Below are positions 18,393 through 29,342 of a stretch of DNA of 64,000 bases, piece after piece. The stretch's first letter is position 1. Every line of letters starts with the position of its first letter. Position numbers and translations under genes: made by a program. Below the pieces are notes generated by a model. The model saw only the letters and a list, made by a program, of their open reading frames with translations, was not told the DNA's origin and ran no database searches. Source of the stretch: Candidatus Methylomirabilota bacterium (lineage in GTDB: Bacteria > Methylomirabilota > Methylomirabilia > Rokubacteriales > DASRDR01); NCBI GenBank assembly GCA_035550795.1, contig DASZOL010000069.1:3942-67941 (forward strand). The letters run 5' to 3'.

Positions 18393-19349
18393 TCAGAGGT
18401 ACTGACCGTAGCGGATCTTGACGACCACGTCCCGGACGCGGCGCGACTCGTCCACCGCGGTCATGAGGTCCGCCGTCCGGACGAGGCCCGGGTCCTGCCC
18501 GCCTCCCGCCTGGTGGACCTTCTCCTCGAGCGCACGGTGTATCACCTCGGCGACCTCGCCGCCGCTCATCCCGGCCAGCCGGGACACGAGCAGGTCAGGG
18601 TCGATGGGCTCGAAGAGCGTCCGCTCGGCCATCGCCTCCGCGCGCTTGCGCTGGATCTCGAGGATCTCCCGCAGCGCCGGGCCGTCGGGCAGCGGCACCT
18701 CGATGAGGTGGTCCAGGCGCCCGGGAGCGATGAGGAACGATCCGATTCCGTCCGGGCGGCTCGTCGAGGCGAGGACCAGGAGCGAGGGGAAGGCCCGCAG
18801 CCCGTCGAGCAGCTCACAGATCCCGATCAGGAGCGGCGCCGCCGCCTCCCGGGCGCGCTCGGGAGGAAGCATGTGCTCGAACGAGAGGGCCTCCGCGTCC
18901 TCGAAGTAGAGGACGCCCTTCCCCTCCGAGCCGGCGAGCTGGAACACCTCCTTGATCACCTCGGCCGCCAGCGGGCCGACCTTGGAGGTGAGGGTCGCCA
19001 GCCGGAAGTGATAGAAGAGCGCTTCCGACAACGTCGCCAGGGCCTTCGCGAGCAGCGTCTTCCCGTTGCCGGGCGGTCCGTAGAGGAGTCCGCCGCGCGG
19101 CGGGGCGATGCCCCAGCGCCGGTAGAGCTCGGGCGTCCGGAGCGCGTGGGACAGCCCGCTGATCGCGGCCTTCGCGCTCTCGGCGCCCCCGATCATCCCG
19201 AAGGTCACCTCCGGCCGCGGGATGACCTCGACCCGCCCCCGGAGGTCCCCGAACTTCGGCTCGAGCTTGCCGACCAGATCGTCCAGACGGCGCTGGACGG
19301 CCCACTCCACCGCGGGCAGGGCGCGGCTCGATCCCGCTGCGTCGCGCAC
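18393..19349 (-). CDS. Single-domain AAA+ ATPase-like protein with C-terminal GQYL (proteasome-docking) motif
   Basis: PPRGGLLYGPPGNGKT Walker A, LYFEDAE altered Walker B, PGRLD, ends KIRYGQYL*. Confidence 0.85.
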   Translation of the reverse strand: MRDAAGSSRALPAVEWAVQRRLDDLVGKLEPKFGDLRGRVEVIPRPEVTFGMIGGAESAKAAISGLSHALRTPELYRRWGIAPPRGGLLYGPPGNGKTLLAKALATLSEALFYHFRLATLTSKVGPLAAEVIKEVFQLAGSEGKGVLYFEDAEALSFEHMLPPERAREAAAPLLIGICELLDGLRAFPSLLVLASTSRPDGIGSFLIAPGRLDHLIEVPLPDGPALREILEIQRKRAEAMAERTLFEPIDPDLLVSRLAGMSGGEVAEVIHRALEEKVHQAGGGQDPGLVRTADLMTAVDESRRVRDVVVKIRYGQYL

Positions 19350-22917: not shown

Positions 22918-23501
22918 GCAGCCTCGCCAGGCGGCGTGATCAGGAGCGACCAGCCGCGCCGGGTCGCCCAGGTCCGGAGGAACTCGGCGTAGGAGAGGAT
23001 GCGATACGCCGTCGTCCCGGAGTGGAGGACCACGACCTCGCTCCGGTCGTCATAGCCCAGGAGCACCGCGAAGTGCGGCACCGACACCGGGCCCCGGCCC
23101 AGGTCCTGGAACACGATGAGCGGCCGGCCTCGGCGTAGCTCGGTCTTGGCGCGATCGAGGGTGCCCTCGAATGCCTGGGTCCGGAATCCGCGGCGGCGCG
23201 CCTCGAACTCGAGCTCGAGGTTGAGGACACCGCGGGCCGAGGGCAGGTAGAGGGCGCGCCCGATCTCCTCCGGGTCGGCGGCGGCCCCCCAGAAACGGAG
23301 AACCATGGCGAGCGCCGCCGGACCGCACTGGTAGGCGGCCTGGGGGATGAAGGGGACCGTCGCGATGAGGTGGCCGTGACCTGCGGCGACGTCGGCACGC
23401 ACGGCGTCCAGCGTGGTCTGAGCACATCCGCTTCCGAGGAGACCAGCCAGAAGGAGCGCGAGCCGCGCGCGCCCTCTGAAAGGTTGAAGCGGGCGCCACA
23501 T
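22914..23501 (-). CDS. C39-like (PA2778-type) cysteine peptidase, predicted lipoprotein
   Basis: Lipobox LGSGC; VPFIPQAAYQCGPAAL (Cys); HFAVLLGYD (His); stop overlaps ade start. Confidence 0.85.
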   Translation of the reverse strand: MWRPLQPFRGRARLALLLAGLLGSGCAQTTLDAVRADVAAGHGHLIATVPFIPQAAYQCGPAALAMVLRFWGAAADPEEIGRALYLPSARGVLNLELEFEARRRGFRTQAFEGTLDRAKTELRRGRPLIVFQDLGRGPVSVPHFAVLLGYDDRSEVVVLHSGTTAYRILSYAEFLRTWATRRGWSLLITPPGEAA

Positions 23502-23517
23502 CGCGTTTACTATACCA
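23484..23517. promoter_or_regulatory. Overlapping bidirectional promoter
   Basis: + strand TTGAAG-18-TACTAT; - strand TG-G-TATAGT ending 7 nt before ATG 23501. Confidence 0.55.
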
Positions 23518-23528
23518 TTCAACGCGAC

Positions 23529-23645
23529 ATGGCCCAGGACGCGCCGGTGCACCGCTGCTGGGTCTGCGGGGCGATCATGCGCGAGATCAAGTGCAAGATC
23601 GTCTGCCCGCATTGCGGGTATACGCGCGACTGCTCGGATCCCTGA
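23529..23645 (+). CDS. 38-aa Cys-rich zinc-ribbon microprotein
   Basis: MAQDAPVHRCWVCGAIMREIKCKIVCPHCGYTRDCSDP; CxxC...CxxC. Confidence 0.75.
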   Translation: MAQDAPVHRCWVCGAIMREIKCKIVCPHCGYTRDCSDP

Positions 23646-23661
23646 GCGCCGCGCGCCGGTC

Positions 23662-24531
23662 GTGACGATCGACGAGGCACTTCGCCAGGCGTCCGCCGAC
23701 GCCGCGCGCGGCGTCGTGACCGTACCCGCGAACCTCCACGGCTTCCCCGGCACTGCGCACGGCGGCGCGGTGGCCGCGGTGTTTCACCGCCTCACGCTGC
23801 CGCGCCCGCCGGTGGAGCTGCACGTCGAGCTGCTTCGCGGCGTGCCCACCGCCACGCCCCTCGGACTCCGCACGGGTAGCACCGGGGCGACTGCGCGACT
23901 GGCGCTGACCCAGCGCGAGCGCCCGCTGGCGGAGGCGACGCTCCGTCGCGAGGGGCTGGCCCAGCCGGATGTCTCCGGGCTGCGGGCCGGGTGGGCGGCG
24001 GACCACGACGCCCGGGCCGAGGTGCCCGGGACCGAGACCTGTCTCGCGTGCGGCTCCGCAAACCCGCTCGGCCTCGGCGTCCGCTTCCTGGTGAACGATG
24101 GGTTCCTCTGGCGCGAGTGTCTCCCGCCCCCGGCCTACCGGACGCGGGGAGGCACGCATCCAGCCCTCGCGCTCGTCCTCCTGGACGAGCTCGGCTGGTG
24201 GCTCGGCGCGCTCACGCAGAAGGAGTGCGGCGTGACCACCGACCTTCGCGTCACGCTCTTCGACTCGCTGCCCCTCGCGCCCCTCCTTGTCGTCGGTGAC
24301 CGCACGGCGGTCGGGCGCGACGACGACCCCCGGGGCCGGTACAGCCGGACCGCCGGGGCGCTTCTCGGTCCGGACGGCACACTCCTCGCGAGTGCGGAGA
24401 TCCGCTTCGCGGGGAGCCGCGCGTACACCCGGCGGCTCGTGGAGCCCTTTCTCACCAGGACGCCCCTCGACGAGCTGGCCCGCTGGTTCCCCAGTGCCCG
24501 GGATCTCGCCGCCCCGGAGTCCGGCGGCTGA
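23662..24531 (+). CDS. Tandem hotdog-fold (PaaI-like) thioesterase
   Basis: GTAHGG motif in domain 1; CLACGSANPLGL and LDE in domain 2. Confidence 0.7.
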   Translation: MTIDEALRQASADAARGVVTVPANLHGFPGTAHGGAVAAVFHRLTLPRPPVELHVELLRGVPTATPLGLRTGSTGATARLALTQRERPLAEATLRREGLAQPDVSGLRAGWAADHDARAEVPGTETCLACGSANPLGLGVRFLVNDGFLWRECLPPPAYRTRGGTHPALALVLLDELGWWLGALTQKECGVTTDLRVTLFDSLPLAPLLVVGDRTAVGRDDDPRGRYSRTAGALLGPDGTLLASAEIRFAGSRAYTRRLVEPFLTRTPLDELARWFPSARDLAAPESGG

Positions 24532-24554
24532 CGCCCGCCGCACGCGATTTCCGC

Positions 24555-24583
24555 TTGCAAAGGCCCGCATTCGTGGCGAAAAT
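24555..24583 (+). promoter_or_regulatory. Promoter TTGCAA-17-GAAAAT
   Basis: Exact 17-nt spacing; implies start at GTG 24606 (GGAG upstream). Confidence 0.5.
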
Positions 24584-24605
24584 GGTCGTCGAGTGGCTGG
24601 AGCCC

Positions 24606-25040
24606 GTGAAGAACATCATCGTCTACAGTCGTGAGCTAAAGGCGCAGAATCTTTACCCAAGACGCATTATTTCCCCCCCAGCGCCAAACAAGTGTTGCCC
24701 CGGCCGGATGGAAGTCCTTGGCCGGCCGCGGCTTGATGAGCAGGATCGGCGTTTCTCATACAAGCGGTGCAAGGTCTGCGGCTTTGCGCTCCGTCACTTC
24801 CTGGACCCCGTGGGTACCATCCTGACCCCGGCCTCACACGACCCTAAGGCGCGTAAGCCTTTGCCGGCGAAGGACAATCGACCGATCGGCTCAGTGCCGT
24901 CTCCGGACCGTGGCCTGCAGCTGGCGGCACCCGCGAGGAAGTCTGGGGCGGCCGCGCGCCACCCGGCGCGGCCAGCGCCGGTCCGGCGGCCGCACCCGGT
25001 CGGGGTCGATCGAAAGGGCGCGGGGCGTCGGCGGCGCTAA
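24606..25040 (+). CDS. Hypothetical protein with CC...CxxC putative Zn site and basic disordered tail
   Basis: NKCCPGRM...YKRCKVCGF; own promoter; start could also be ATG 24582. Confidence 0.65.
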   Translation: MKNIIVYSRELKAQNLYPRRIISPPAPNKCCPGRMEVLGRPRLDEQDRRFSYKRCKVCGFALRHFLDPVGTILTPASHDPKARKPLPAKDNRPIGSVPSPDRGLQLAAPARKSGAAARHPARPAPVRRPHPVGVDRKGAGRRRR

Positions 25041-25139
25041 GAGCCGCCCTGGGTCGCAAGGCCCCTTCCCCCTTCAGCTCGCGCCGGTGGCGACGGGCCC
25101 GTCAATTCATCCTTTGAAGCTCACCTGGAGTGATTCCGC

Positions 25140-27665
25140 ATGGACAGGGTTGTCACGTGGCCGCTTTGGTCCGCCGAGCAGATCGTCGAGGCGCTCCCTG
25201 ATCTTGTCGCCGTGGTCGAGATCCACCTGCCGGACCTCCCCCTCGAGCACCTCGAGAAGAACCGCGCCGCCGTCGAGGTCCTGAAGGGCGACATTCCCGG
25301 AACCGCCCAGGTCCGGGACGGCTCCCGCAGCGGGGACCTGACCACCCTGGGCTTCGCGCTGGACGTGCTCGGGCGGCGCGCCGCGCGGGATGGCGACCTC
25401 GGGGAAGCGCTCCGCCTCTTCCAGGCGGCCCACGAGCTCTTCCGGCGCGGCAATCCCCTGATGCGCGCCACCCGCCCGATGCGCCAGACCCTCGGGAATG
25501 CGGTTCGCGCGCTTCTCGTCGATCAGGTCTCCCGGTGCCAGCGCGGGGACACCGACGTGCGCGCGGTCCGCGCCGCCGTCACGGCGTTCGTCAGCTCGGC
25601 CTGGGGCACGGTGCCGACGCAGGTGGCGCTCGCCGTGGACGAGATGATCCTGATCGAGCTCGAGCGAGCGCGCCTGGCCGCCGAGAACGACCCGGCGCTG
25701 CGCGACCACCTGGTCCAGGCCAACGTGGAGGCCGTGCTCGAACTGGAGGTGCCCACGCGCCTCCAGCGCATCCGCCGGGACTGGGAGGACATCGGCGAGC
25801 GGGTCGCGCCCGCGGCGGTGCGACGCGCGCAGCGCGCCCTCCGCCGGGCCGAGCCCCTTTCCACCCTTGTCCCGCCGGCTATCTGGGAAGAGATCCGCCA
25901 GGCGGTCGAGCGAGGCGACACCGAGGCCCTCGGGCAGGCGCTGGCCGACGTGCGGGACGAGCTGGAAGGCAACCTCCGGCTCCGGCTCGACGCGAAGCCC
26001 GAGCACCGCGAGCCGGTCTCGGAGCTGCGCGTCGTGGGCGCCCCGGACCCCGCGTTTCTCCACGCCCGAGAGCTCCTGCTCCGGCGTGATCCCGGGGCGC
26101 TGGCCGAGTTCGCCGACCTGCACTATCGCCGCAGCACGAACACCATCGCCAAGGAGTGGTACGCGTACGCGCTGACCCTGTTCGGTCAGGCAACCGACAT
26201 CCACGACGTCATCGAGCTGCTCGAGGCCGCGATCGCGTCCGACCGCTTCCACGAGCATCGCGGCTGGACCGCGCGCTGGAACCTCGCTTGTGCGCTCCGG
26301 CGCCTGCCCTCGCGCGCGGACGAGGCGCTGGACGTCCTGCTGCCGGTGCTCGACCTCGACGCGCATCCCGTGGAGGTCTTCGAGCTGTGCCTGCTCTGGG
26401 CGATCGAGCAGGGCCGCCAGGACACGCTAGGAATCCTCTGCCTTCGCGCCCGCCACTACGAAGCGCACCTGCTCGCCGCGCTCCAGGACGCCGAGACGGC
26501 AGGAAACGCCGTTACGCCCGGGCGGTTTCGCGACCACTTCCGGCGGATCAACCGGATCCTCCGGGATCCAGACCGCGTCTTCCCGGATCCACGGGAGCGC
26601 CTGCTCTTCGAGGAGTTCGACCAGCTGACGCGGGAGTTCATCGAGACGTCGCTCGTCGCCGCGGGCGTCGAGTGGTTCCGGCAGCGTGTGGCGGCGGGGC
26701 CCGAGGCCGGCGTCTTCAAGAACTGGGAATGCGCGGCCACGCTCAACGAGGAAGCCGGAGATCTCGCCGCCAGCTGGCGGTGCCGCCTTCACAGCTGGCG
26801 GGTCACCCAGCACCGGCGGAACGTCCACCCGCGGAAGAAGGCCCAGCTCCTGCGCGCCCTGCTCGGCTGGGCCCAGCGCCATGGATTCCAGGAGGACGCG
26901 CTCCGGGTTTTCCGGCAGAGCTGGCGGGAGACCAGCTTCTCGGAGGGGGACGCGCGCCTGTGGGCGGAGCGGCTCGGCGCCCCGATTGCCGACGCCGCGG
27001 AGGCGGCGATGGAGGAGGAAGACGAGTCAGCGGCAGCCGGGCCTGGGACGCCCCCGGCGGTGGTCGCGTCTCAGCGCGAGGCGCCCGGCGGCGGCCGGCC
27101 GCGACCCGCGGATCCGTCGGTCCGCCGTCCGGCGCTTGCCCTGATGCTTGACTGGGAGAACGTGAAGGTCAGCCTCGCCCGCCACCTCGATGAGCTCCCG
27201 GCGGCTCGCACGCAGGCACTGCGCGCCCGGCTGAACGGCGTCGAGCTGGCCTCCCGGCTCCTCAACGCCGCCTGGCGACACGGCCTCCCTCGGCAGCGGT
27301 GGGCCGTCGCCGATTGGGACCGCGCCTTCTTCGAGGGCGATCAGAAGGCCGTGCGGAACGCGCGCTTTTCGACCGACATCGCCGGTGGCGACAAGGCCAA
27401 CGCGTCCGATCATGTGCTGCGCGAGAAGATCCATTCCGTCCTGCGCGAGCACCCGGAGATCCCCGTGTACGTGATCGGTACCGGGGACGGCGACTTCCAC
27501 GAGGTCGTCAAGACGCTCCGGCTGCAGGGGAAGCAGGTCATCCTCTGGGCGACGCGACGCTCGGTGAGCGAGAGCTACGGGGGCAGCCTCCAGGGGCCTG
27601 GCCGGATCCGGATCGAGTGGCTGGAAGACCTGGTCTTCGGCGAGGTGGGGGCCGACGCCAGGTGA
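25140..27665 (+). CDS. Large helical/TPR-like protein with C-terminal NYN (PIN-like) domain
   Basis: LMLDWENV, ASD, VIGTGDGDFHEVV..LRLQGKQV; TPR-like helices such as ARWNLACALRRL...DEAL. Confidence 0.8.
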   Translation: MDRVVTWPLWSAEQIVEALPDLVAVVEIHLPDLPLEHLEKNRAAVEVLKGDIPGTAQVRDGSRSGDLTTLGFALDVLGRRAARDGDLGEALRLFQAAHELFRRGNPLMRATRPMRQTLGNAVRALLVDQVSRCQRGDTDVRAVRAAVTAFVSSAWGTVPTQVALAVDEMILIELERARLAAENDPALRDHLVQANVEAVLELEVPTRLQRIRRDWEDIGERVAPAAVRRAQRALRRAEPLSTLVPPAIWEEIRQAVERGDTEALGQALADVRDELEGNLRLRLDAKPEHREPVSELRVVGAPDPAFLHARELLLRRDPGALAEFADLHYRRSTNTIAKEWYAYALTLFGQATDIHDVIELLEAAIASDRFHEHRGWTARWNLACALRRLPSRADEALDVLLPVLDLDAHPVEVFELCLLWAIEQGRQDTLGILCLRARHYEAHLLAALQDAETAGNAVTPGRFRDHFRRINRILRDPDRVFPDPRERLLFEEFDQLTREFIETSLVAAGVEWFRQRVAAGPEAGVFKNWECAATLNEEAGDLAASWRCRLHSWRVTQHRRNVHPRKKAQLLRALLGWAQRHGFQEDALRVFRQSWRETSFSEGDARLWAERLGAPIADAAEAAMEEEDESAAAGPGTPPAVVASQREAPGGGRPRPADPSVRRPALALMLDWENVKVSLARHLDELPAARTQALRARLNGVELASRLLNAAWRHGLPRQRWAVADWDRAFFEGDQKAVRNARFSTDIAGGDKANASDHVLREKIHSVLREHPEIPVYVIGTGDGDFHEVVKTLRLQGKQVILWATRRSVSESYGGSLQGPGRIRIEWLEDLVFGEVGADAR

Positions 27666-27690
27666 GCCGGGGCCGGGGCGGCGCCGTGAC

Positions 27691-28155
27691 TCAGGCGGAC
27701 GCGCGGAACCGCCGGAGGATGGCCTCGAGCTCCTCTCCGGCGCGGTGCCGGTCGCGCATCACGACCTCGTGACGCTCCTGCACCTCGACGAGCTCACGGG
27801 CCAGGCGCTCTCGCTCCCGGGTCAGAGCCTCGTGGCTCCCCCGGAGCGACGCGAGCGCGCGCTGAGACTCCTCGCGCTGCTGGAGGAGGCGCTCGTACTC
27901 GCGCGTCAAGCTGTCGTGGCTCGCCCGAAGGGACGCGAGCGCGTCCCGGACCTCTTCGTGCTCGTGGCCGAGCCGCTCGTGCGTCGCGCGTAGCTCGCCG
28001 AGCTCCCACGCGAGGCGGTCCGCTGTCTGACGGTACTCGTCGTGCTCTCGGGCCAAGGCTTCGACGTTGGACACGAAGCCGTCCCAGTCCAAGACGATCT
28101 GCCGAACGGCCTCGACGACCGACCGCAACTCGCCGAACTTGACCTCGGCCATCAC
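27691..28155 (-). CDS. Coiled-coil hypothetical protein
   Basis: Heptad periodicity; internal 28-aa repeat; SD GGGAGG. Confidence 0.75.
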   Translation of the reverse strand: MMAEVKFGELRSVVEAVRQIVLDWDGFVSNVEALAREHDEYRQTADRLAWELGELRATHERLGHEHEEVRDALASLRASHDSLTREYERLLQQREESQRALASLRGSHEALTRERERLARELVEVQERHEVVMRDRHRAGEELEAILRRFRASA

Positions 28156-28196
28156 ACGTCCCTCCCTGCCCCGGATCAGCCGCGCGGGGGAGCCTC

Positions 28197-28226
28197 ACGA
28201 TAGCCCAGCGTCTTGCCCGACCGCAA
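28197..28226 (-). promoter_or_regulatory. Promoter TTGCGG-18-TATCGT for the coiled-coil gene
   Basis: Consensus-like hexamers ~40 nt before start. Confidence 0.5.
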
Positions 28227-28310
28227 GGCTCGACTGCCCTCCGGACCACCACCAAACAGATGAGGAGTCGGCCCGGTCTAGGTGCCGGCCGGCGAGGGGT
28301 GATGCGGGCC

Positions 28311-28339
28311 TTGACGCCATCGGGCAAGCCGCCTACCGT
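28311..28339 (+). promoter_or_regulatory. Promoter TTGACG-17-TACCGT for the CusF-fold gene
   Basis: Near-consensus, exact 17-nt spacer. Confidence 0.6.
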
Positions 28340-28373
28340 CTGCCTACCCCGCTTGCGATCGGAGGGCCCTCGG

Positions 28374-29342
28374 ATGCTGACGGCGGTCAATGGACGCCCG
28401 CGGCCGCATGGCCGGCGCGGCCCCCGTGCTCGGTCCGCCCGGCGACTGCTGGGCGCCCTGGCCCTGGCACTCTGGGCCTTCGAGCCCACCGCGGCCGGCC
28501 AGAGCTTCGAGGGTCAAGGCCGCGTCATGGCCGTCGATGAGGGCCGCAACACCGTGACGATCCAGCACTCGACCATCCCGGGATTGCTCCCGGCCACCCG
28601 GTCGGAGTTCCCGGTCCGGACGGCGGGCGTGTTACAGGGCGTGCACCTGGGGGATCGCGTGCGGTTCACGCTCGACGCCGCCGACGACACCCACGGGCTG
28701 CTCACCGTGCTGAGCGTGGCTCCCGAGAGCACCGGCGGCGCCGGCTGGCTCGACCGCGTGATGCAAAGTGCGGCGGTGGCCCTCGGCCTCCTCACTCTCG
28801 CCGCCGCCGCGGCGGTGGGCGTCGTCCTCTGGCGGAATCTGCAGATCCTCCACCGCCGGGTGGTGGCGCTCGATCACGAGGTGGGGACGCTGCGGGGGCT
28901 CATCACCGACACGCAGGACGGGGTCCGCCAGATCGCCAAGGCCCTGGACGACGCCGCCACGGCCCTCCGCCTCGGGTACATCCAGGAGCTCGGCCGCCGG
29001 ATAGGTCCCGCCGCGCCGCTGGCCGCGATCGAGAGCGCGAACGCCCTGGCTCCCGGAGAGTCAGCCGGCGCAGTGGTCGTCATCGAGCGCGGGCGGGGCG
29101 CGCTGTACCGGGCGGTGGAGGGCGGGGCGGCCGGACCCGGGCTCGCGGTGATCTGGGATCGACGGCGTAGCGAGCGCCGCCGGAGCGCGCGGCGGCCGAT
29201 CGGCCACGAGCGCCGCCGGACGGAACGGCGAGGATCCCCGCCGGAGACGTGGAGGCAGCTCGGTTTCCAAGTCGTTCCCGGGGACGCCGCCGACGCCACC
29301 CGCGCCGCGCGCCTGCTCCGGCCCGGGAGTGCCGATCACTGA
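28374..29342 (+). CDS. CusF/Cu_bind_like OB-fold + TM + coiled coil + DRRxxERR-motif protein
   Basis: GRVMAVD..TVTIQH..IPG, GDRVRFTL; TM helix; VIWDRRRSERRR...ERRRTERR. Confidence 0.7.
   Translation: MLTAVNGRPRPHGRRGPRARSARRLLGALALALWAFEPTAAGQSFEGQGRVMAVDEGRNTVTIQHSTIPGLLPATRSEFPVRTAGVLQGVHLGDRVRFTLDAADDTHGLLTVLSVAPESTGGAGWLDRVMQSAAVALGLLTLAAAAAVGVVLWRNLQILHRRVVALDHEVGTLRGLITDTQDGVRQIAKALDDAATALRLGYIQELGRRIGPAAPLAAIESANALAPGESAGAVVVIERGRGALYRAVEGGAAGPGLAVIWDRRRSERRRSARRPIGHERRRTERRGSPPETWRQLGFQVVPGDAADATRAARLLRPGSADH

What the first reader, a model, noticed from the sequence alone, without database searches (positions are those of the whole stretch)
25140..27665. 841-aa TPR-like sensor fused to an intact NYN RNase domain: possible sensor-effector (defence or stress) protein
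Seen: ~640 aa of amphipathic helical, TPR-like sequence, an acidic/Pro-rich linker, then an NYN domain with the acidic motifs DWEN, ASD and GDGDF. Known: NYN (LabA/DUF88) domains are PIN-like metal-dependent RNases, usually small or fused to OST-HTH. TPR-sensor plus nuclease-effector layouts recur in antiphage systems. Inference: a ligand-gated RNase. The flanking genes are orphans, not metabolic.
Basis: partly seen in the sequence, partly recalled or inferred. Interest (0 to 1): 0.7.

Follow-up and report, generated by a model that had tools for sequence, protein, structure and literature searches.

The report
TPR-tethered NYN RNase, ATPase-less NLR relative
This is a real 841-residue gene that joins a long helical-repeat scaffold to an intact RNA-cutting (NYN) domain; it is a core, slowly evolving gene of one family of uncultured soil Rokubacteria that descends from a rare, unstudied immune-receptor-like protein family after losing that family's ATP-driven switch, and its function is untested.

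Summary
Observation confirmed. ORF 25140-27665 (+) encodes 841 aa. It has a confidently modelled all-helical TPR-like solenoid (aa 12-628), a disordered acidic/Pro-rich linker (619-661) and an NYN domain. The five best PDB fold matches of that domain are all the MARF1 NYN domain. The DxEN, SDH and GDxDF motifs are invariant in 31 homologues.

Interpretation partly supported. The architecture is right. "Orphan flanks" is wrong: the neighbours include adenine deaminase, MFS transporters, a C39 peptidase and transketolase. No PADLOC model matches the protein, its relatives or its neighbours beyond generic hits.

The gene is single-copy and syntenic in every sampled genome of one Rokubacteria family and absent from the sister family. 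Both domains are under strong purifying selection (dN/dS about 0.1); the linker evolves nearly neutrally.

New point: most relatives are about 1450-1700 aa and carry a P-loop ATPase (AAA_16/ATPase_2/AAA_14) plus a probable winged helix between the solenoid and the NYN domain. They are scattered across at least five phyla, sometimes beside TIR-NB-ARC, CHAT or toxin-antitoxin genes. The Rokubacterial short form is nested inside them, so the ATPase was lost.

A small basic zinc-ribbon gene always lies directly upstream and has the same family-limited distribution within the order.

Most likely function: a partner- or ligand-directed endoribonuclease that became a fixed chromosomal gene. Defence versus cellular role is unresolved.

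The parts
25140..27665 (+). Gene for the 841-aa TPR-like/NYN protein (P0001), stop codon included
   Evidence: ORF list and translation; GC3 0.90; about 110 full-length orthologues at 61-87% identity
25127..25130 (+). GGAG Shine-Dalgarno-like motif 9 nt upstream of the ATG
   Evidence: Read directly from the sequence; function inferred
25140..26993 (+). N-terminal all-helical TPR-like solenoid, aa 1-618 (pI about 6). Its most conserved part is aa 301-450 and 481-540 (KEWYAYAL, RWNLACALRR, HFRRINRIL, EWFRQR, KNWECAA)
   Evidence: AF2 helices 12-628, pLDDT mostly above 85; Foldseek matches to OGT, SPINDLY, Ski3, Tom70 and consensus-TPR superhelices, E 2e-5 to 1e-3; conservation profile; dN/dS 0.12-0.18
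26994..27122 (+). Disordered acidic/Pro-rich linker, aa 619-661. It occupies the place where relatives carry about 630 aa with a P-loop ATPase
   Evidence: pLDDT below 50 at 619-661; dN/dS 0.6-1.0; pairwise alignment with P0109
27123..27662 (+). C-terminal NYN (LabA-like, PIN-like) nuclease domain, aa 662-841 (pI 9.5)
   Evidence: Pfam PF01936; domain model pLDDT 87.5, top five PDB hits all MARF1 NYN; BFVD hits to NYN/LabA-like proteins; dN/dS 0.10-0.14
27150..27161 (+). Motif D671-W-E673-N674 at the end of strand 1 (predicted metal-binding Asp)
   Evidence: D, E and N invariant in 31 sequences
27405..27413 (+). Motif S756-D757-H758 (second conserved acidic position)
   Evidence: Invariant in 31 sequences
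27483..27497 (+). Motif G782-D783-G-D785-F786 (NYN signature with two Asp)
   Evidence: G, D, D and F invariant in 31 sequences
24582..25040 (+). Small, very basic (pI 11.5) zinc-ribbon protein gene (CC...CxxC), start at 24582 ATG or 24606 GTG. It lies 100 nt upstream on the same strand and is a possible partner
   Evidence: Conserved at 57-93% directly upstream of the NYN gene in every Rokubacteria locus examined. Within the order Rokubacteriales it has nearly the same distribution as the NYN gene: present in family f1, absent from f2, with one weak hit in an f3 genome that lacks the NYN gene. The site after p289 is empty in f2. The functional link is inferred

Best explanation
The gene encodes a metal-dependent NYN endoribonuclease tethered by a flexible, fast-evolving 43-residue linker to a roughly 620-residue TPR-like solenoid.

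It is a derived, ATPase-less member of a rare, undescribed protein family. The usual form of that family (about 1450-1700 aa) reads: TPR-like solenoid, then a P-loop ATPase (AAA_16/ATPase_2/AAA_14-like) with a probable winged helix, then NYN. That is an NLR/STAND-like sensor-switch-effector layout with the order inverted.

In one family of Rokubacteria (Methylomirabilota) the ATPase module was deleted. The remaining two-domain protein, together with a small basic zinc-ribbon gene directly upstream, became a fixed, single-copy, syntenic chromosomal gene under strong purifying selection.

Proposed mechanism (inferred): the solenoid binds a conserved macromolecular partner or ligand. That partner could be the zinc-ribbon protein, another protein or an RNP. 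Binding positions or unmasks the NYN active site (D671, D757, D783, D785 with Mg2+/Mn2+), which then cleaves single-stranded RNA.

Because the nucleotide switch is gone and the gene behaves like a core gene, I think it now acts as an 'institutionalised' stress- or conflict-response or RNA-turnover nuclease rather than a mobile anti-phage cassette.

Shown here: the gene, the folds, motif conservation, distribution, synteny, selection, and nesting within the long forms. Inferred: RNase activity, gating by the solenoid, partnership with the zinc-ribbon protein, and the biological role.
For: - Folds: full-length AF2 model pLDDT 86.7. The solenoid matches TPR superhelices. The NYN domain model's top five PDB hits are all MARF1 NYN, TM 0.72-0.80.
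- Catalytic motifs are invariant in 31 sequences.
- Relatives with an inserted ATPase: Pfam AAA_14, ATPase_2 and AAA_16 lie between the two shared domains. The profile search of 1.84 billion representatives finds mostly 1400-1700-aa members and only two or three short ones.
- The tree places the Rokubacteria short forms as one clade (support 100) nested within long forms (support 99).
- No ATPase-insert homologue was found elsewhere in the window's genome.
- Distribution: 11/11 and 16/16 sampled genomes of the family carry one copy, and none of the many near-complete sister-family genomes sampled does.
- Synteny with p289 and the small zinc-ribbon gene is fixed. The site is empty in the sister family.
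- dN/dS is about 0.12 for the solenoid, about 0.11 for NYN and 0.6-1.0 for the linker. Amino-acid identity equals that of neighbouring housekeeping genes.
Against:
- The Pfam NYN score of this protein alone is just under the gathering threshold.
- The relative orientation of the two domains is not predicted with confidence (pTM 0.51), so gating is conjecture.
- The ATPase of the long forms could not be classified rigorously as STAND: Pfam hits are weak and there is no PDB sequence hit.
- Family-wide fixation does not exclude an immune role.
- The zinc-ribbon gene belongs to a multi-copy family that elsewhere precedes unrelated operons, so its adjacency may be regulatory or coincidental.
- The window's genome is only 83% complete, so the absence of a trans ATPase is not proven.
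Confidence: 0.5

Rival explanations
1. Active anti-phage (abortive-infection) sensor-effector. The TPR solenoid recognises a phage protein or nucleic acid and directly releases the NYN RNase to destroy host and phage RNA, with no nucleotide switch.
For: - The parent family has an NLR-like sensor-ATPase-effector layout and a patchy distribution across Chloroflexota, Acidobacteriota, Actinomycetota, Planctomycetota and Methylomirabilota at 35-56% identity.
- Some long forms sit next to TIR-NB-ARC-TPR and kinase-AAA_16-TPR genes, a CHAT protease, or PIN/antitoxin genes.
- NYN and TPR domains recur in conflict systems (PMC8195603, read; the rest is my own knowledge).
Against: - There is no PADLOC hit for the short or long forms, and the neighbours give only generic coiled-coil and AAA matches.
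- In Rokubacteria the gene is single-copy, present in every genome of the family, in fixed synteny among metabolic genes, with dN/dS about 0.1 in the supposed sensor and no hypervariable segment.
- The ATPase switch that normally keeps such effectors in check is missing.
Confidence: 0.25
2. Two-gene toxin-antitoxin-like or regulator-nuclease pair. The small basic zinc-ribbon protein encoded 100 nt upstream binds the mildly acidic solenoid or the NYN domain and inhibits or targets the RNase. Loss or modification of the small protein frees the nuclease.
For: - The two genes are always adjacent on the same strand in the family.
- Within the order they share nearly the same distribution: present in f1, absent from f2, apart from one weak small-gene hit in an f3 genome.
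- The site after p289 is empty in the sister family.
- The charges are complementary: solenoid pI about 6, small protein pI 11.5.
Against: - Long forms never have the small gene nearby.
- The zinc-ribbon domain is a multi-copy family (1-8 copies) in other Methylomirabilia and precedes unrelated operons such as Mrp/ApbC-SufB, which fits a general DNA- or RNA-binding regulator better.
- The 100-nt gap shows no translational coupling.
Confidence: 0.12
3. Housekeeping RNA-processing or decay enzyme (for example an rRNA, tRNA or mRNA maturation nuclease) whose TPR domain docks it on the ribosome or a degradosome-like complex. This would be analogous to PPR-NYN proteinaceous RNase P or to ribosome-dependent Rae1/YacP.
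For: The gene shows core-gene behaviour and purifying selection. In some genera it lies beside RNase HII, L19, TrmD, RimM and S16 genes. The central solenoid is as conserved as the catalytic domain.
Against: - The gene is absent from the sister family and from most of the phylum, so it cannot be a general housekeeping function.
- RNase P RNA is present in 9/9 good genomes of the family, so it does not replace RNase P.
- Its relatives are sporadic and horizontally spread.
Confidence: 0.1
4. Catalytically dead scaffold: the NYN fold is kept only as a binding module.
For: The Pfam score is marginal, and the first helix-rich insert (aa 680-712) departs from the NYN model, which starts matching at profile position 22.
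Against: All four canonical acidic positions and their flanking residues are invariant across 31 sequences from several phyla. NYN-domain dN/dS is about 0.1.
Confidence: 0.03

Closest known systems
LabA-like NYN domains (Pfam PF01936), e.g. the MARF1/limkain-b1 NYN domain (PDB 6fdl, 5yaa) and VPA0982 (2qip)
   Same: Same fold (TM 0.72-0.80 to MARF1 NYN). Same DxxN, SD and GDxDF acidic motifs. Pfam PF01936 matches across the family.
   Different: There is no OST-HTH/LOTUS domain. An extra three-helix insert follows strand 1 (aa 672-711). The domain is fused to a 620-aa TPR-like solenoid. Sequence identity to solved NYN domains is only 14-17%, and the PDB profile search was not significant (2qip E=0.19).
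STAND/NLR-like NTPases with TPR sensors and nuclease effectors (bacterial Avs/NLR-related proteins; NTP-dependent conflict systems of Kaur et al. 2020, PMC7159879)
   Same: The long relatives combine superstructure-forming repeats, a central P-loop ATPase with weak AAA_16/ATPase_2/AAA_14 matches plus a probable winged helix, and a nuclease effector. They are sporadic across phyla and sometimes lie beside TIR-NB-ARC, CHAT or toxin-antitoxin genes.
   Different: The window protein has no ATPase at all. In the long forms the order is inverted (repeats N-terminal, effector C-terminal). No PADLOC or Pfam nSTAND model matches. The ATPase clade was not resolved.
PRORP (proteinaceous RNase P: PPR helical repeats plus a NYN metallonuclease)
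   Same: The logic is the same: a helical-repeat domain that selects the substrate, fused to a C-terminal NYN nuclease.
   Different: The NYN subfamily differs (LabA-like, not PRORP-type) and there is no zinc-binding central domain. Bacterial RNase P RNA is present in 9/9 good genomes of the family, so this protein does not replace RNase P.
Giant zinc-ribbon/STAND-like ATPase/NYN protein from a soil Chloroflexota bacterium noted earlier in this scan (e1-3906804)
   Same: Helical scaffold plus ATPase plus intact NYN. A 1687-aa representative (P0257) that begins with a zinc ribbon matches my family profile at E=1.8e-7, so it probably belongs to the same superfamily.
   Different: It is much longer, keeps the ATPase, and has an N-terminal zinc ribbon unrelated to the small Rokubacterial zinc-ribbon protein. 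I could not confirm identity with that earlier finding.

Membership tests
NYN domain, LabA-like (Pfam PF01936) | Significant match to the family HMM at or above the gathering score | tested here: met
   The protein-mode score is 23.6 bits against a cut-off of 24.2 (E=7.9e-5), which is marginal on its own. The six-frame genome search gives 26.8 bits, over the cut-off. Homologues aligned over the whole domain score 28-46 bits.
NYN domain, LabA-like (Pfam PF01936) | PIN-like alpha/beta fold with a parallel sheet | tested here: met
   Domain model pLDDT 87.5, pTM 0.85. The top five PDB matches are all MARF1 NYN, probability 1.0, TM 0.72-0.80, rmsd 3.3-4.4 A. BFVD matches to NYN/LabA-like proteins.
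NYN domain, LabA-like (Pfam PF01936) | Conserved acidic residues (DxxN after strand 1, a central SD, and GDxDF) | tested here: met
   D671, E673, N674, S756, D757, G782, D783, D785 and F786 are invariant in 31 sequences.
NYN domain, LabA-like (Pfam PF01936) | Metal-dependent ribonuclease activity | not testable with these tools
   Needs biochemistry.
TPR repeat proteins | Pfam TPR repeat matches above threshold | tested here: not met
   Only a faint TPR_2 match (13.7 bits against 27) at aa 73-101. Distant long relatives P0177 and P0251 do pass, with TPR_2, TPR_8, TPR_14 and TPR_19 in P0177 and TPR_19 in P0251.
TPR repeat proteins | Right-handed superhelix of helix-turn-helix pairs | tested here: inconclusive
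   Foldseek matches to OGT, SPINDLY, Ski3, Tom70 and designed CTPR proteins reach E 2e-5 to 1e-3 with probability about 1.0, but TM is only 0.1-0.4 because the superhelix geometry differs. 'TPR-like alpha-solenoid' is safe; canonical 34-residue TPR periodicity was not shown.
STAND / NLR-like NTPases (Avs, NACHT, NB-ARC, MalT-type) | Central P-loop NTPase (NOD) module | tested here: not met
   It is absent from the window protein; a 43-aa disordered linker occupies its place. It is present in the long relatives (Pfam AAA_16, ATPase_2 and AAA_14, weak). No trans copy was found in the window's genome.
Known anti-phage defence systems (PADLOC-DB v2) | Match to a defence-system protein model, and location in a defence island | tested here: not met
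   There were 0 hits for P0001. Long forms gave only weak P-loop or NYN-tail hits. Neighbours gave only coiled-coil and generic AAA noise. Pfam identifies the flanks as metabolic and transport genes.
PRORP-type protein-only RNase P | Replaces RNA-based RNase P; PPR domain plus PRORP-type NYN | tested here: not met
   RF00010 is found in 9/9 high-quality genomes of the family. There is no PRORP or PPR Pfam hit.
MARF1/limkain-type NYN proteins | NYN combined with OST-HTH/LOTUS RNA-binding domains | tested here: not met
   No OST-HTH/LOTUS match in Pfam; the rest of the protein is a helical solenoid.

The most novel reading that the evidence does not exclude
The Rokubacterial pair (small basic zinc-ribbon protein plus TPR-NYN protein) is a nucleotide-independent RNA-targeting surveillance module that evolved from an NLR-like TPR-ATPase-NYN receptor by deleting the NTPase switch. 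It would be a natural example of an immune-receptor-type protein that stays functional and becomes a fixed core gene without its ATPase, with the solenoid gating the RNase directly. The parent TPR-ATPase-NYN family would then be an undescribed single-gene, RNA-degrading NLR-like defence family of soil bacteria.
Probability: 0.2. Interest if true: 0.7.

Novelty: new variant of a known kind. Interest (0 to 1): 0.45.

Why it matters
- NYN nucleases and TPR sensors are each well known. This particular family has no Pfam or PADLOC model of its own and was found in no paper in three literature searches. That holds for both forms: solenoid plus P-loop ATPase plus LabA-like NYN, and its ATPase-less Rokubacterial derivative.
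- If the long forms are immune receptors, they add an RNA-degrading, inverted-order NLR-like class.
- The short form then shows what happens when such a receptor loses its nucleotide switch and is fixed in a lineage. That bears on how conflict systems are domesticated.
- The family also offers a tractable model, because cultured Actinoallomurus and Amycolatopsis strains carry long forms.
- If it is only a lineage-specific RNase, it is a modest annotation gain for an uncultured phylum.

Tried and rejected
1. PRORP-like replacement of RNase P. Rejected: bacterial RNase P RNA is present in 9/9 good genomes of the family. It is missing only from the 83%-complete genome that holds the window and from two other incomplete ones.
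2. ATPase supplied in trans. The 629-aa insert of P0109 finds nothing in the window's genome. The nearby AAA gene (18393-19349) is a different, PF00004-type ATPase and is also conserved in the sister family that lacks the NYN gene.
3. Small zinc-ribbon protein fused at the N-terminus of the giant (over 1650 aa) relatives. Their N-termini are TPR-like, or in P0257 an unrelated DZR-type ribbon; BLAST found no similarity.
4. Small zinc-ribbon gene as a general partner of the family. It is absent near all 18 long-form or other loci checked.
5. Sequence-only PDB searches. The full protein, the NYN profile and the ATPase insert gave nothing significant; only the fold search resolved the NYN domain.
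6. PADLOC on the protein, six long relatives and nine neighbours gave nothing meaningful.
7. The promoter and terminator scan of 23400-28400 found no sites, so the operon structure is unresolved.
9. A viral structure library search gave only generic TPR and NYN/LabA-like giant-virus proteins.
10. Literature searches found no description of the family.
Full report
**1. The observation**

The window is 72% G+C. ORF 25140-27665 on the + strand encodes 841 aa with an ATG start. Its GC3 is 0.90, like the other real genes of the window. A GGAG lies 9 nt upstream of the ATG.

Pfam gives a marginal NYN (PF01936) match at aa 705-810 (E=7.9e-5, 23.6 bits against a cut-off of 24.2) and only faint TPR matches at aa 71-102. 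NCBIfam and PADLOC give nothing useful.

An AlphaFold2 model built on 31 homologues is confident (mean pLDDT 86.7). It shows:
- 34 helices from aa 12 to 628;
- a disordered stretch at 619-661;
- a beta-alpha-beta domain at 665-833.

The disordered stretch is acidic and Pro-rich (pI 4.2).

**2. The two domains**

A separate model of aa 658-841 (pLDDT 87.5, pTM 0.85) was searched against the PDB. The five best matches are all the NYN domain of human or mouse MARF1 (6fdl, 5yaa). Probability is 1.0, TM normalised to the target is 0.72-0.80, and rmsd is 3.3-4.4 A. The next hits are unrelated Rossmann-like folds with far lower TM.

In the viral structure library the matching small proteins are annotated NYN or LabA-like/DUF88. 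Homologues that align over the whole domain pass the Pfam NYN threshold with up to 46 bits. NYN membership is therefore secure by fold, profile and motifs. Only the activity is untested.

The full-length model matches long TPR superhelices: O-GlcNAc transferase, SPINDLY, Ski3, Tom70 and designed consensus TPRs. E-values run from 2e-5 to 1e-3, but TM-scores are low, as expected for solenoids of different pitch. Two distant relatives pass Pfam TPR thresholds. 'TPR-like alpha-solenoid' is justified; a canonical TPR array was not shown.

The solenoid is mildly acidic (pI about 6) and the NYN domain is basic (pI 9.5).

**3. Who has it**

The word-indexed search found about 110 full-length proteins of 825-855 aa at 61-87% identity. 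Every source name given was Rokubacteria/Methylomirabilota.

Across 151 genomes of the phylum, the gene is present once in all 11 sampled genomes of the window's own family. It is absent from every sampled genome of the sister family, many of them over 95% complete. It occurs once more, in a different form, in one genome of another order. A search with the NYN model finds exactly one ORF of about 840 aa in 16 of 16 genomes of the family.

The upstream gene order is fixed: 4HBT thioesterase, AAA protein, BFN nuclease, MFS transporter and/or adenine deaminase, C39 peptidase, a 289-aa protein (p289), a small zinc-ribbon protein, then the NYN gene. The downstream side differs between genera.

The flanks are therefore mostly ordinary metabolic and transport genes, not orphans. 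PADLOC finds only coiled-coil and generic AAA noise in them.

**4. Selection**

Between the window and 16 orthologous loci, the solenoid is 68-88% identical and the NYN domain 75-90%. That is the same range as adenine deaminase, BFN and the AAA protein in the same loci.

Nei-Gojobori estimates for eight usable comparisons give dN/dS of 0.12-0.18 for the solenoid in seven of them and 0.30 in the most divergent pair (L030). The NYN domain gives 0.10-0.17 and the linker 0.6-1.0.

No hypervariable 'sensor' segment is visible. The middle of the solenoid (aa 301-450) is as conserved against relatives from other phyla as the catalytic domain (60%). Only the first 150 residues are clearly more variable (38%).

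**5. The wider family and the lost ATPase**

About a dozen hits of 1430-1472 aa share the whole solenoid (49% identity over aa 1-650) and the NYN domain (60%). Between the two they carry about 630 extra residues with Pfam AAA_14, ATPase_2, AAA_16 and AAA_35 matches. These are followed by what looks, by eye, like a winged helix.

A profile search of 1.84 billion cluster representatives found 311 proteins. Nearly all full-length representatives are 1400-1700 aa; only two or three are short. More distant ones again show TPR, P-loop and NYN in that order.

In named genomes the long forms are scattered. They occur in Anaerolineae and Ktedonobacteraceae (Chloroflexota), Pyrinomonadaceae and Thermoanaerobaculia (Acidobacteriota), and Planctomycetota. 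They also occur in Actinoallomurus soli, Amycolatopsis and Actinophytocola (Actinomycetota) and in a groundwater Methylomirabilota MAG, at 35-56% identity. This patchiness points to horizontal spread.

A maximum-likelihood tree places all Rokubacterial short forms in one clade (support 100), nested within a clade that also contains long forms (support 99). Two other short proteins (P0119, P0136) lie elsewhere. The simplest reading is that the long form is ancestral and the ATPase was lost at least twice. The tree is midpoint-rooted, uses a quick search and includes the ATPase columns, so this needs a fuller analysis.

The ATPase insert has no homologue elsewhere in the window's genome, though that genome is only 83% complete.

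**6. Neighbourhoods of the long forms**

The long forms have no conserved partner. In individual loci the long gene lies:
- near a TIR-NB-ARC-TPR gene and a kinase-AAA_16-TPR gene;
- directly after a 1154-aa CHAT protein or a Ser/Thr kinase;
- beside a PIN toxin or an Unstab_antitox gene.

Other loci show two-component systems, glycosidases, DsbD or YfhO.

No PADLOC model matches beyond weak P-loop hits and NYN-tail hits. The picture fits stand-alone NLR-like conflict genes of soil bacteria but does not prove it. Three literature searches found no description of this architecture. The eLife paper PMC8195603 mentions NYN only as one of several RNase effectors in animal TRADD-N proteins.

**7. 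The small zinc-ribbon neighbour**

A gene 100 nt upstream (24582 or 24606 to 25040) encodes a very basic (pI 11.5) protein with a CC...CxxC ribbon and an Arg/Pro-rich tail. It is conserved at 57-93% and lies directly upstream of the NYN gene in every Rokubacterial locus examined.

Within the order it has nearly the same distribution as the NYN gene: present in the family and absent from the sister family. The exception is one weak hit in a third family (f3) whose genome lacks the NYN gene.

The preceding gene, p289, is an order-wide core gene (59 of 61 genomes). In two sister-family genomes the synteny up to p289 is kept, but neither the small gene nor the NYN gene follows. The pair therefore looks like one two-gene insertion or deletion unit.

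Against a dedicated partnership:
- the 67-aa ribbon domain is a multi-copy family (1-8 copies) in other Methylomirabilia;
- one copy precedes an Mrp/ApbC-SufB operon;
- no long form has it nearby.

It could be a lineage-specific nucleic-acid-binding regulator.

**8. Mechanism and role**

Established knowledge of NYN/PIN nucleases is that four acidic residues hold Mg2+/Mn2+ and the enzymes cut single-stranded RNA (Anantharaman and Aravind 2006; MARF1 studies; my own knowledge). On that basis I infer an endoribonuclease with D671, D757, D783 and D785 at the active site.

The solenoid is too large, too conserved and too constrained to be a passive appendage. I infer that it selects the target or controls access to the active site through a conserved macromolecular ligand.

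In the long forms the ATPase would provide the usual ligand-triggered switch or oligomerisation. In the Rokubacterial form this step has been removed. Control must then be direct, or exerted by a partner such as the zinc-ribbon protein.

Because the gene is fixed, syntenic and slowly evolving, I favour an 'institutionalised' cellular role (stress or conflict response, or RNA turnover) at about 0.5. The alternatives are:
- a still-active anti-phage sensor-effector (0.25);
- a toxin-antitoxin-like pair (0.12);
- a housekeeping processing enzyme (0.10);
- a dead scaffold (0.03).

A PRORP-like role is excluded because RNase P RNA is present in 9 of 9 good genomes of the family.

**9. Verdict**

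The defence reading is not supported for this lineage, although it is plausible for the parent family.

The added value is the link to an undescribed TPR-ATPase-NYN family and the evidence that the ATPase was lost. A 1687-aa representative with such a ribbon (P0257) matches my profile weakly (E=1.8e-7), so that protein probably belongs to the same superfamily.

Novelty: a new variant of a known kind. Interest is moderate (0.45), and everything functional remains to be tested.

Noticed in passing
window 24582-25040 (+); also L015 5639-6052 (-): The N-terminal 67 aa of the small zinc-ribbon protein (NIIVYSRELK...CC...CxxC) define a family with no Pfam model. It has 1-8 copies per genome in several Methylomirabilia families, is single-copy in the window's family and is absent from the sister family. 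In one complete genome a copy precedes an Mrp/ApbC-SufB operon. It may be a lineage-specific regulator family.
   Followed up: partly
window 23662-24531 (+): The 289-aa protein (P0123) has only a weak 4HBT_3 (acyl-CoA thioesterase) match and an internal CxxC. It is a core gene of the whole order (59/61 genomes) and marks the site where the zinc-ribbon/NYN pair is present or absent.
   Followed up: partly
window 27691-28155 (-): A 154-aa all-coiled-coil protein lies convergent to the NYN gene, 25 nt beyond its stop. It is conserved (69-82%) only in the closer relatives. Its Pfam and PADLOC hits are coiled-coil noise (JetC, HALZ).
   Followed up: no
L060 1-7405: In one metagenomic contig the long TPR-ATPase-NYN gene follows a kinase-AAA_16-TPR gene, an HTH_17 gene and an 841-aa TIR-NB-ARC-TPR gene. 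This is a cluster of NLR-like genes.
   Followed up: no
L054 2312-5776: In an Actinophytocola MAG a 1154-aa protein with a C-terminal CHAT (caspase-like) domain ends about 225 nt before the long TPR-ATPase-NYN gene, on the same strand.
   Followed up: no
P0109 aa about 760-880 (L020): Between the solenoid and the ATPase, the long forms carry a segment that by eye looks like a beta-sandwich (IYRTRIFARL...VEISIDVTYKSGE) with no Pfam match. It was not modelled.
   Followed up: no
L021: A contig titled 'uncultured Thermoleophilaceae bacterium' carries an 85%-identical orthologue with Rokubacterial synteny. The MAG label is probably wrong, or the contig is mis-binned.
   Followed up: no
L037 6001-8491: The orthologue in this MAG reads as only 646 aa in frame and gives aberrant dN/dS. 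It is probably a frameshift or assembly error.
   Followed up: no
G000 (the window's genome): The search found no RNase P RNA in the window's genome or in two other incomplete genomes of the genus, although all 9 high-quality genomes of the family have it. This is most likely incompleteness (83%).
   Followed up: partly
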